DNA of 64,000 bases from a virus (taxonomy: Duplodnaviria; Caudoviricetes), in the IMG/VR virus record IMGVR_UViG_3300011008_000025, positions 31,036 to 95,035 of that record. One strand, given 5' to 3'. Of the stretch, positions 18,635 through 18,936 are shown in pieces. Within the stretch, counting starts at the first letter, position 1. Every line of letters begins with the position of its first letter. Both the position numbers and the translations under genes were made by a program. The notes below the pieces were generated by a model, which did no database searches, was not told the DNA's origin, and saw nothing but the letters and a program-made list of their open reading frames with translations.

Positions 18635-18663
18635 TTGCAAAAATTCCGTTTTCGTGTTAAGAT
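18635..18663 (+). promoter_or_regulatory. antisense sigmaA promoter
   Basis: TTGCAA-N17-TAAGAT with extended TG, pointing against the early operon. Confidence 0.55.
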
Positions 18664-18691
18664 AAAAAGCGCCCGGCGGTAAACCGGGCGC
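18664..18691 (-). terminator. intrinsic terminator
   Basis: GCGCCCGG/CCGGGCGC stem followed by TTTTT on the minus strand. Confidence 0.8.
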
Positions 18692-18702
18692 CCGTCGTGC
18701 TA

Positions 18703-18804
18703 TCAGGCTATGTAGTCACAATATTCCTGTTCTGTCGCGAACAGGATATACCGATTTCCTACCCAGCCCCAATAGCCGGCTTGGGTATAGTATCCCCTCG
18801 TGAT
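18703..18804 (-). CDS. 33-aa Tyr/Gly-rich peptide with a non-AUG start (ATC or ACG)
   Basis: AAGAAAGGGG RBS, then (I)TRGYYTQAGYWGWVGNRYILFATEQEYCDYIA*; resembles a GY...GY.G.V...Y.LFATE.EY small-protein pattern recalled from clostridial phages. Confidence 0.65.
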   Translation of the reverse strand: MTRGYYTQAGYWGWVGNRYILFATEQEYCDYIA

Positions 18805-18878
18805 ACTACACCCCCTTTCTTAGCGCCTGTATGTTGCCGCATATGGGCGCTATTATTTTGTGGGTTTGCGAAGCTTGT

Positions 18879-18936
18879 CCCACGACGCCCCGGGCAGGGG
18901 CGTTTCGTCGCAATTTTCAGCGACTCATCGGGCGGG
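18879..18936 (-). ncRNA. type I hammerhead ribozyme (U4C core variant)
   Basis: CCCGC-CCGAUGA-GUCGC(UGAAAAUU)GCGAC-GAAAC-GCCCC(UGCCC)GGGGC-GUC^GUGGG; all three stems pair. Confidence 0.88.

What the first reader, a model, noticed from the sequence alone, without database searches (positions are those of the whole stretch)
18635..18883. Ribozyme-released mini-mRNA for a 33-aa peptide, with several apparent brakes on expression
Seen: downstream of the cleavage site come a hairpin, a strong RBS, a non-AUG start (ATC or ACG) buried in a TAGTATC/GATACTA stem, a Tyr/Gly-rich 33-codon ORF, an intrinsic terminator and a convergent promoter (TTGCAA-17-TAAGAT) that would make antisense RNA across it. 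Inference: a potent small effector under tight post-transcriptional control, possibly an undescribed ribozyme-peptide-antisense module.
Basis: partly seen in the sequence, partly recalled or inferred. Interest (0 to 1): 0.7.

Follow-up and report, generated by a model that had tools for sequence, protein, structure and literature searches.

The report
Antisense-guarded small phage protein gene
This is a real, unannotated 33-codon gene from a very widespread but unnamed family of gut-phage mini-proteins, sitting in a compact cassette that looks built to keep its translation low, and in this lineage a hammerhead-type ribozyme motif precedes it.

Summary

**The ORF is a real gene.**
- A profile of it finds 1041 protein clusters.
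- Synonymous sites are saturated and replacement sites are not.
- AlphaFold gives a confident three-strand-plus-helix fold.
- No database names the family, and its function is unknown.

**The window copy has no in-frame ATG, GTG or TTG.** Its ATC lies where many homologues have ATG. Its ACG lies where the nearest relatives have TTG or GTG.

**Features shared by all five members of the GC-rich clade:**
- a hairpin that buries part of the ribosome-binding site and the start;
- an intrinsic terminator;
- just beyond the terminator, an opposite-strand extended -10 promoter.

That promoter is also invariant, at the same distance, in a very diverged AT-rich clade. It is missing where the gene sits inside ordinary operons. 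The hairpin upstream of the ribosome site reads as the antisense terminator, which predicts an antisense RNA of about 190 nt.

**The hammerhead is optional.** Three of the five clade members have it, and none in the other clade. Two of the three carry C at core position 4, and Rfam scores the window copy below threshold.

No RNA data exist. Toxicity, translation and cleavage are all untested. I file it as a new variant of known kinds.

The parts
18879..18937 (-). Type I hammerhead-like motif. Stem I is 18937-18932 paired with 18883-18879. The core CCGAUGA is at 18931-18925. Stem II is 18924-18907. GAAA is at 18906-18903. Stem III is 18903-18885. C17 is 18884, so the predicted cut is 18884|18883.
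   Evidence: Read from the sequence. RNAalifold recovers the three-stem junction for the window, L007 and L045, with both-sides-changed pairs in stems I and II. RF00163 matches 18878-18937 over its full length but at only 15.6 bits against a cut-off of 34. Nothing reaches the Rfam gathering threshold. A 3%-diverged relative keeps stem III through a substitution plus a 1-nt insertion.
18860..18883 (-). 5'-terminal hairpin of the predicted cleavage product. The 3' strand of stem I re-pairs with a downstream copy of its partner (GUGGG/CCCAC).
   Evidence: The same alternative pairing, with changed letters (GCAGG/CCUGC), starts at the first base after GUC in L007 and L045.
18821..18859 (-). A-rich run plus hairpin 2. 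Read on the plus strand, it is an intrinsic terminator (hairpin 18821-18852, then a T-rich tail to about 18862) for the predicted antisense RNA.
   Evidence: One search lists plus-strand 18821-18852 as terminator-like, with 14 pairs. The hairpin is present with different stem letters in L007, L045, L004 and L058. It is preceded by an A-run in the window, L007, L045 and L058. In the relative X2/X3 only its apical loop differs.
18809..18819 (-). Shine-Dalgarno sequence (GAAAGGGGGUG).
   Evidence: It is conserved as GAAAGGGGGU in L007 and L045, AAAGGAGGU in L004 and GGAAGGAGU in L058.
18778..18815 (-). Hairpin that pairs the 3' half of the Shine-Dalgarno and the start region with the Tyr-Tyr-Thr codons.
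   Evidence: -19.4 kcal/mol, z -4.95. An equivalent hairpin is present in all five GC-clade members (-12.7 to -19.4 kcal/mol) and is absent from an ordinary-operon member (L029). GUAUAG/CUAUAC in L045 against GUGUAG/CUACAC in L004 is a change on both sides of the stem.
18703..18804 (-). Small-protein gene: 33 codons from ATC 18804-18802 (32 from ACG 18801-18799), with stop TGA at 18705-18703.
   Evidence: The profile finds 1041 clusters at E<=1e-3. AlphaFold2 gives pLDDT 93.8. It is a single copy in the phage record. It is identical in the 3%-diverged relative X2/X3.
18662..18693 (-). Intrinsic terminator of the sense transcript. Its complement forms the 5' hairpin of the predicted antisense RNA.
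   Evidence: 11 pairs plus a T-run. An equivalent terminator is present in L007, L045, L004 and L058.
18635..18663 (+). Convergent promoter: -35 TTGCAA at 18635-18640, a 17-nt spacer, TG at 18655-18656, and -10 TAAGAT at 18658-18663. The predicted start is about 18669.
   Evidence: the best antisense site is in the same place (the -35 starts 63-69 nt past the stop) in every cassette of the two clades, and only 1% of shuffles of the window's own region score as high. TG.TA..AT is invariant in 7 aligned cassettes. L058 has a perfect TTGACA-17-TATAAT.
18669..18860 (+). Predicted antisense RNA of about 190 nt. It is complementary to the sense terminator, the whole ORF, the start hairpin and the Shine-Dalgarno.
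   Evidence: Inferred from the promoter and the terminator. The fold is -82.5 kcal/mol, z -6.55, with a 5' hairpin, an unpaired CUUUCUU stretch facing the unpaired AAGAAAG of the sense RNA, and a terminator hairpin. No RNA data exist.

Best explanation
The ORF is a functional gene for a soluble mini-protein of about 33 residues, with three beta strands and one helix. It belongs to a very large, unnamed family of phage proteins of gut Clostridia.

In this lineage of large phages with a YonO-like RNA polymerase, the gene sits in a self-contained cassette of about 230 bp (18628-18862). Three features of the cassette would keep protein output low:
- **Weak initiation.** Translation must start at a near-cognate codon: ACG, which aligns with the TTG or GTG of the nearest relatives, or ATC, which aligns with the ATG of more distant ones.
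- **A buried start.** A hairpin hides part of the ribosome-binding site and the start.
- **Antisense transcription.** A constitutive-looking extended -10 promoter just beyond the sense terminator would make an antisense RNA of about 190 nt. This RNA covers the ORF and the ribosome site and ends at hairpin 2.

In the window the cassette is transcribed as the second unit of a leftward operon. A type I hammerhead-like motif in front of it would cut it free of the upstream message. The released RNA would then begin with a hairpin at its first base, which should protect its 5'-hydroxyl end.

**Shown by comparison:** the coding status, and the conservation of the start hairpin, the terminator, the antisense promoter and the ribozyme-like fold.

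**Inferred only:** that the near-cognate start is used, that the antisense RNA exists and represses, that the ribozyme cuts, and what the protein does.
For: **Coding**
- 34 viral loci and 3 genome loci carry an intact homologous ORF.
- In alignment A2 the columns G4, Y5, G10, G13, F22, A23, T24, E25 and Y28 are invariant.
- Across the family pS is about 0.8 and pN about 0.3. Third codon positions vary about twice as much as first or second positions.
- The profile finds 1041 representative clusters, 208 of them at E<=1e-10.
- AlphaFold2 gives pLDDT 93.8.

**Still under selection without a canonical start**
- The window and L004, which both lack a properly spaced canonical start, differ by 11 synonymous and 11 replacement changes, where 22% synonymous is expected (P=0.003).
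- A relative that is 3% diverged in the neighbouring gene has no difference across 18627-18834.

**Weak starts as a clade trait**
- At the aligned start position the codons are L045 TTG, L058 GTG, L007 ATA, window ACG and L004 ACG.
- About 25 of 27 other distinct members use ATG.

**Regulatory architecture**
- The start hairpin is present in 5 of 5 clade members.
- The antisense promoter keeps the same position in two clades whose synonymous sites are saturated. TG.TA..AT is invariant. The promoter is absent from members in ordinary operons.
- Hairpin 2 reads as a terminator on the antisense strand.
- The relative's contig departs from the window at 18627, the cassette edge. L004 carries the cassette in a different context.

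**Ribozyme**
- The three-stem junction is recovered for 3 sequences, with compensated changes.
- L045 has the canonical CUGACGA core.
Against: - There are no transcript, ribosome or proteomic data of any kind.
- The window copy has no canonical start, so it could be a recently inactivated gene.
- dN/dS within the clade is not very low (0.18-0.56), and two of the four pairwise tests are not significant.
- The hammerhead has C at position 4. This change is not among the natural core variants described in PMC3088659.
- Stem I is only 5 pairs.
- Rfam's model scores the motif at 15.6 bits against a cut-off of 34, and sub-threshold hits of this kind also occur in 13 of 14 control genomes.
- The promoter is 8 of 12 by consensus, and AT-rich sequence after a terminator easily resembles a -10.
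- The AT-rich clade shows no clear antisense terminator.
- Nothing shows that the protein is harmful or needs silencing.
Confidence: 0.6

Rival explanations
1. The window copy is a dying gene. The ancestral ATG mutated to ATC, the protein is no longer made, and the sequence persists because the loss is recent or because the sense and antisense RNAs still matter.
For: There is no ATG, GTG or TTG in frame. The ATC sits exactly where several homologues have ATG. Most family members use ATG.
Against: - Three lineages (window, L007, L004) lack a properly spaced canonical start, yet all keep intact frames, a strong Shine-Dalgarno and conservative replacements.
- The synonymous excess between the window and L004 has P=0.003.
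- The two other clade members use weak TTG or GTG, which suggests a graded trait and not breakage.
- The ORF is identical in the 3%-diverged relative.
Confidence: 0.15
2. It is a type I toxin-antitoxin-like pair. The mini-protein is toxic to the host and the antisense RNA is its antitoxin, stabilising the prophage or aborting superinfection.
For: - The layout is that of Firmicute type I systems: a small ORF, a structured 5' region with a hidden ribosome site, and convergent sense and antisense transcripts that overlap.
- Weak starts fit a dangerous product.
- The cassette moves as a unit.
Against: - The protein has no hydrophobic or membrane segment. It folds as a soluble beta-beta-beta-alpha unit with an acidic tail.
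- Hundreds of family members sit in ordinary phage operons with ATG starts and no antisense promoter.
- Toxicity is untested.
Confidence: 0.2
3. The plus-strand 'promoter' is not a promoter. The conserved TG.TA..AT block would be a sense-strand signal, for example part of the terminator tail or a processing or binding site ahead of the next gene. In that case no antisense RNA is made.
For: By consensus alone the window site is weak, at 8 of 12, below the scan threshold. The block lies in the U-rich region after a terminator. No RNA data exist.
Against: - The invariant letters are exactly those of an extended -10, with a T-rich -35 exactly 17 nt away in 7 of 7 cassettes.
- L058 has the perfect consensus.
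- The next gene downstream differs between the window, L004, L007/L045 and the relative X2/X3, yet the block stays.
- A matching terminator lies on the antisense strand.
Confidence: 0.15
4. The region encodes only a structured non-coding RNA, and the ORF is incidental.
For: The fold is strong (z -6.8). Several hairpins are conserved. Gene callers do not call the ORF in L007 or the window.
Against: The amino-acid sequence is conserved across 1041 clusters with saturated synonymous sites, including AT-rich genomes where the RNA hairpins are absent.
Confidence: 0.03

Closest known systems
Type I toxin-antitoxin loci of Firmicutes and their prophages (fst/RNA II of pAD1 par, txpA/RatA, bsrG/SR4, yonT/SR6 of SPbeta). 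Recalled from my own knowledge, not tested here.
   Same: A small ORF, a structured mRNA with a sequestered ribosome-binding site, a stabilising 5' hairpin, a convergent cis-antisense RNA, terminators used in both directions, and a location in large temperate Firmicute phages.
   Different: The product is not a hydrophobic membrane peptide. No toxicity is known. Most family members lack the antisense partner. The antisense RNA covers the whole ORF and not only its 3' end.
Antisense control of phage regulatory genes (P22 sar RNA against ant, lambda OOP against cII, P1 c4 against ant). From my own knowledge.
   Same: A short phage antisense RNA made from a promoter inside or next to an early gene would block the translation or stability of one small early product.
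   Different: There is no homology. The role of the protein in a lysis-lysogeny decision is pure conjecture. The promoter lies beyond the sense terminator.
Hammerhead ribozymes that flank single genes in prophages (Perreault et al. 2011, PMC3088659).
   Same: An intergenic hammerhead-type motif in a phage polycistronic transcript, placed so as to release a single-gene mRNA. That paper proposes exactly this kind of processing.
   Different: Two of the three copies carry C at position 4. The section on natural core variants read does not describe this change. Stem I is short, with no evident loop-loop contact. The 3' strand of stem I has a conserved alternative partner that would form a terminal hairpin after cleavage.
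Near-cognate start codons used to limit expression (infC AUU, pcnB AUU in E. coli). From my own knowledge.
   Same: A strong Shine-Dalgarno followed by a non-AUG/GUG/UUG codon at the correct spacing, in a gene whose product is presumably wanted at low level.
   Different: ACG or AUC starts are not documented for this host group, and no autoregulation is implied.

Membership tests
Unnamed KGY...GY.G.V...LFATE..Y mini-protein family of gut phages | Conserved 33-residue core with invariant G4, Y5, G10, G13, F22, A23, T24, E25 and Y28 | tested here: met
   Alignment A2. The window copy matches the family profile at E 6.6e-21, although the profile includes the window copy itself. The profile finds 1041 clusters.
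Unnamed KGY...GY.G.V...LFATE..Y mini-protein family of gut phages | Canonical start codon directly before the KGY motif | tested here: not met
   The window has ATC-ACG-AGG before GGA-TAC. About 25 of 27 other distinct members have ATG.
Hammerhead ribozyme, type I (Rfam RF00163) | Three stems around the junction, with stem I open | tested here: met
   RNAalifold consensus for the window, L007 and L045. The minimum-energy fold of L007 gives the junction on its own.
Hammerhead ribozyme, type I (Rfam RF00163) | Conserved core CUGANGA ... GAAA ... UH | tested here: not met
   The window and L007 read CCGAUGA, with C at position 4. GAAA, the A15.1-U16.1 pair and GUC are present. L045 reads CUGACGA plus one extra U.
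Hammerhead ribozyme, type I (Rfam RF00163) | Score at or above the curated covariance-model threshold | tested here: not met
   15.6 bits against 34. No hit.
Hammerhead ribozyme, type I (Rfam RF00163) | Self-cleavage | not testable with these tools
   Needs an in vitro transcription and cleavage assay.
Type I toxin-antitoxin system | Small toxic protein, typically a hydrophobic membrane peptide | tested here: not met
   The sequence is Tyr/Gly-rich with an acidic end and no hydrophobic stretch. It is modelled as a soluble beta-beta-beta-alpha unit. Toxicity itself is untested.
Type I toxin-antitoxin system | Cis-encoded antisense RNA that overlaps the toxin mRNA | tested here: inconclusive
   A conserved promoter and terminator predict one. 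No RNA run holds the locus.

The most novel reading that the evidence does not exclude
The mini-protein is a potent early effector of large gut-Clostridia phages with a YonO-like polymerase. It would be either toxic to the host or an antirepressor-like trigger. A constitutively made antisense RNA keeps it silent in lysogens. Near-cognate initiation and a hidden ribosome site throttle it further, and in one sub-lineage a variant hammerhead cuts it loose and caps it. If so, this is a non-membrane, type I-like sense/antisense switch family that has not been described.
Probability: 0.22. Interest if true: 0.75.

Novelty: new variant of a known kind. Interest (0 to 1): 0.55.

Why it matters
- **A large unnamed family.** A 33-residue protein family with more than a thousand sequence clusters in gut phages has no name, no Pfam, PHROG or NCBIfam model, and is often missed by gene callers.
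- **A testable regulatory layout.** The cassette offers a compact natural example in which a weak start codon, mRNA structure, an antisense RNA and possibly a ribozyme all act on one tiny gene. All four can be tested with simple reporters.
- **A hint about the protein.** The architecture is conserved in two diverged clades and absent where the gene sits in ordinary operons. That points to a dosage-sensitive function at the start of the early programme, so the protein is a good candidate for functional work on lysis-lysogeny or host takeover.
- **A possible role for bacterial hammerheads.** The conserved re-pairing of stem I into a terminal hairpin suggests they make a protected 5' end.

Tried and rejected
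- **Rfam.** Nothing at the gathering threshold or at E<=10 on the window region, L007 or L045, apart from a weak, terminator-driven similarity to an sRNA model.
- **Phage and viral databases.**
  - INPHARED phages: no DNA match and no protein match for L010.
  - The family archetype matched only two unannotated faecal phage fragments.
  - Single-protein scans of viral contigs with the two flanking genes found nothing.
  - An exact pattern for this hammerhead in viral contigs found nothing.
  - A codon-level pattern in metagenome contigs found more family members in ordinary operons, but no further ribozyme-linked copy.
- **Protein family searches.**
  - A word-index protein search with the L007 peptide returned no candidates.
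  - Pfam, PHROGs and NCBIfam: none.
  - PDB sequence search: only chance matches to a photosystem I subunit.
- **Structure searches.**
  - Foldseek against PDB: nothing.
  - BFVD: only an uncharacterised 39-residue virome protein.
  - VIA-align wide: best Z 3.7.
  - ESM Atlas: only 'hypothetical protein' clusters.
- **Other lookups.** Cluster look-up gave no names. A literature search for peptide motifs returned only chemistry papers.
- **Sequencing runs.** No RNA holder is listed, so expression could not be examined.
- **Initial hypothesis.** I first read the region as a purely non-coding structured RNA, and dropped this.
- **Upstream ATGs.** ATGs inside hairpin 2 were considered as starts and rejected, because their frames disagree between the window, L007 and L045.

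Full report
**Setting**

The window is part of a 95-kb IMG/VR virus record. Genes around the finding run on the minus strand. The finding is the 327-bp spacer between two genes:
- a 227-residue gene at 18951-19634 with no known family;
- a 104-residue zinc-finger gene at 18309-18623.

The phage carries a large gene that matches a PHROG of unknown function. Relatives of the locus lie next to YonV_C genes. A leftward promoter-like site lies at 20191-20164.

**Observation**

Exact coordinates are under parts. The 301-nt stretch folds with z -6.8. Rfam reports nothing at its thresholds.

**What changed my first reading**

I first took the region for a structured non-coding RNA. Homologues of the upstream protein led to contigs L004, L007 and L045. 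These carry the same downstream unit. Their ORFs differ mainly at third codon positions while keeping the residues.

A three-sequence profile then found 34 loci in large viral contigs of 60-217 kb. All have an intact ORF of 33-46 codons with the motif KGY....GY.G.V.....Y.LFATE..Y..Y.
- Across the family pS is about 0.8 and pN about 0.3.
- Third codon positions carry 78 extra states, against 41 and 37 at first and second positions.

A profile search of 1.84 billion representatives found 1041 clusters at E<=1e-3 and 208 at E<=1e-10. The archetype is 33 residues and begins MKGY. AlphaFold2 on the alignment gives pLDDT 93.8 for a beta-beta-beta-alpha unit.

No library names the family and no fold search gives a meaningful relative. 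Genome hits come from Lawsonibacter, Lachnospiraceae and Pseudobutyrivibrio assemblies. The runs that hold the window are gut and faeces metagenomes. Natural tandem and fused forms exist (P0010, P0011, L033).

The ORF is therefore a real gene of unknown function.

**The start codon**

The window's frame is open from 18819 but contains no ATG, GTG or TTG.

In alignment A2 the window's Ile (ATC) lines up with the Met of the MVKGY, MLKGY and MRKGY homologues. Within the five-member GC-rich clade, the codon two places before the Gly of the KGY (RGY in the window) motif lies 8-10 nt after the Shine-Dalgarno. That codon is:

| Member | Codon |
|---|---|
| L045 | TTG |
| L058 | GTG |
| L007 | ATA |
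| window | ACG |
| L004 | ACG |

L007's upstream ATG lies inside the Shine-Dalgarno region. The same ATG is out of frame in L045, so it is not a conserved start. About 25 of 27 other distinct family members use ATG. Weak initiation is therefore a trait of this clade.

The copies without a canonical start still look selected:
- The window and L004 differ by 11 synonymous and 11 replacement changes, against 22% synonymous expected (P=0.003).
- L007 against L004 gives P=0.009.
- The two closest pairs are not significant.

Contigs of a relative (X2/X3) differ from the window at 35 of 1074 bases, but at none of the 208 bases from 18627 to 18834. I read the table's row order as listing all X2 differences up to 19074. 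The phage record has only this one copy of the family.

**The start hairpin**

In each of the five clade members, the bases just after or overlapping the Shine-Dalgarno pair with the Tyr-Tyr-Thr codons (Tyr-Thr-Thr in L058). The energies are -12.7 to -19.4 kcal/mol and z is -2.3 to -5.0. The window's hairpin is the strongest. A member in an ordinary operon (L029) has no such structure. L045 (GUAUAG/CUAUAC) and L004 (GUGUAG/CUACAC) differ on both sides of one pair. The window has the G-U intermediate.

**The antisense promoter**

I scored the 140 bases around each stop codon on the opposite strand.
- Every cassette of the GC-rich clade has its best site with the -35 starting 66-68 nt past the stop (69 in L058).
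- Every cassette of the AT-rich clade (L009-L037) has it at 63-66 nt.
- All have a 17-nt spacer and a TG before the -10. Shuffles reached the observed score 0-8% of the time in all but L015 (27%).
- Members inside ordinary operons have nothing comparable there (L008, L013, L014, L029, L034, L038-L041, L046, L053, L055).

In a seven-sequence alignment, the only invariant block is TG.TA..AT plus a T of the -35. L058 has TTGACA-17-TATAAT.

The block persists although the next gene differs between the window, L004, L007/L045 and X2/X3. The X2/X3 contig leaves the window at 18627, nine bases beyond the -35. The site lacks the 14-nt operator found eight times elsewhere in the window.

**Hairpin 2 as the antisense terminator**

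On the plus strand, 18821-18852 is a 14-pair hairpin followed by a T-rich tail, and the scan tool lists it as terminator-like. The equivalent hairpins have different stem letters. They are preceded on the sense strand by an A-run in the window, L007, L045 and L058. L004's is weak. The hairpin is present even where there is no ribozyme.

The predicted antisense RNA (about 18669-18860) folds with z -6.55. Its fold has three notable parts:
- a hairpin at its 5' end;
- an unpaired CUUUCUU opposite the unpaired AAGAAAG of the sense RNA;
- a terminator hairpin.

In the AT-rich clade I found no clear antisense terminator.

**The ribozyme**

The window, L007 and L045 have a type I junction immediately upstream.
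- RNAalifold recovers stems I, II and III, with compensated changes.
- Stem II is entirely different in the three copies.
- The relative X2/X3 keeps stem III through a substitution plus a 1-nt insertion.
- L045 has the canonical CUGACGA core. The window and L007 have CCGAUGA.

The section on natural core variants in Perreault et al. 2011 does not mention this change at position 4. RF00163 aligns over its full length but scores 15.6 bits against a cut-off of 34, and sub-threshold hits also occur in 13 of 14 control genomes. L004 and L058 have the cassette without any hammerhead. No copy in the AT-rich clade showed one. In L007 an intrinsic terminator abuts the ribozyme.

In all three ribozyme-bearing copies, the 3' strand of stem I can instead pair with a downstream copy of its partner. 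That forms a hairpin starting at the first base after GUC (GUGGG/CCCAC in the window, GCAGG/CCUGC in L007).

From general knowledge of 5'-end-dependent decay in Firmicutes, such a hairpin should protect the 5'-hydroxyl product. Two facts underlie this: RNase J1 degrades the 5'-OH product of the glmS ribozyme, and 5'-terminal stem-loops stabilise mRNAs. This step is inference.

**Mechanism proposed**

The leftward transcript is cut, if the variant core is active, to release a hairpin-capped mini-mRNA. Its ribosome site is half buried and its start is near-cognate. A convergent antisense RNA, made from a promoter without the operator, pairs across the ribosome site and the ORF.

The protein's role is unknown. 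Three observations suggest a dosage-sensitive early function, but nothing tests this:
- In the AT-rich clade the gene is the first one after operator-bearing early promoters.
- It has a guarded architecture.
- That architecture is absent where the gene sits in ordinary operons.

**Comparison and verdict**

The layout works like a Firmicute type I toxin-antitoxin locus, or like the P22 sar/ant pair. It fails the membrane-toxin criterion and has no shown antisense RNA. The hammerhead works like the gene-flanking prophage hammerheads of PMC3088659, but it fails the core-consensus and score criteria.

I file the finding as a new variant of known kinds. Earlier notes of this scan describe other antisense-gated peptide cassettes in phages, whose bolder readings were later rated at about 12%. 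I have kept my odds for the bold reading modest accordingly.

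Noticed in passing
window 18898-18929: The 32-nt stretch holding the hammerhead core, stem II and GAAAC occurs with 0-1 mismatch in other contigs of gut metagenome runs X6 and X7, with unrelated flanks on both sides. In one X6 contig the window's ribozyme (18892-18956) is replaced by 66 other letters between conserved flanks.
   Followed up: no
window 18627: The 3%-diverged relative (runs X2/X3) departs from the window exactly here. Its cassette is followed by a different gene in place of the 104-residue zinc-finger gene.
   Followed up: partly
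L017:1470-1500 and L020:1462-1492: In the AT-rich clade the Shine-Dalgarno lies 13 nt from the ATG or GTG of the mini-protein gene. At normal spacing there is a four-codon TTG mini-ORF that overlaps the real start. This may be a different way of throttling the same gene.
   Followed up: no
window 18806-18811 and L004:4417-4422: A GUG-UAG start-stop pair lies directly after the Shine-Dalgarno, out of frame with the ORF, in the window and in L004. It is absent from L007 and L045.
   Followed up: no
window 18721-18750: Within the ORF, the codons for YILF and EQEY form an inverted repeat (a hairpin in both the sense and antisense RNA). It is present in the GC-rich clade only. The AT-rich clade encodes the same residues without complementarity.
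   Followed up: no
L033:1492-1980; P0010, P0011: The mini-protein domain also occurs fused to a coiled-coil tail of about 140 residues, and as tandem duplicates in one chain. This hints that it may act as a dimer or as a targeting module.
   Followed up: no
window 16673-16712 (+): A second sub-threshold RF00163 hit (16.5 bits) elsewhere in the phage. It is probably chance, given that the control genomes also give such hits.
   Followed up: no
L009-L037, about 100-250 nt upstream of the ORF: Tandem TTGACA-17-TAAGAT promoters, each enclosing an 18-bp palindrome (ATCACAATTAATTGTGAT and variants), precede the mini-protein gene. This makes it the first gene of a repressor-controlled early operon in those phages.
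   Followed up: partly
window 20164-20191 (-): The promoter-like site for the leftward operon (TTGACT-16-TATGTT with TG) carries none of the eight copies of the 14-nt operator found in the window.
   Followed up: partly
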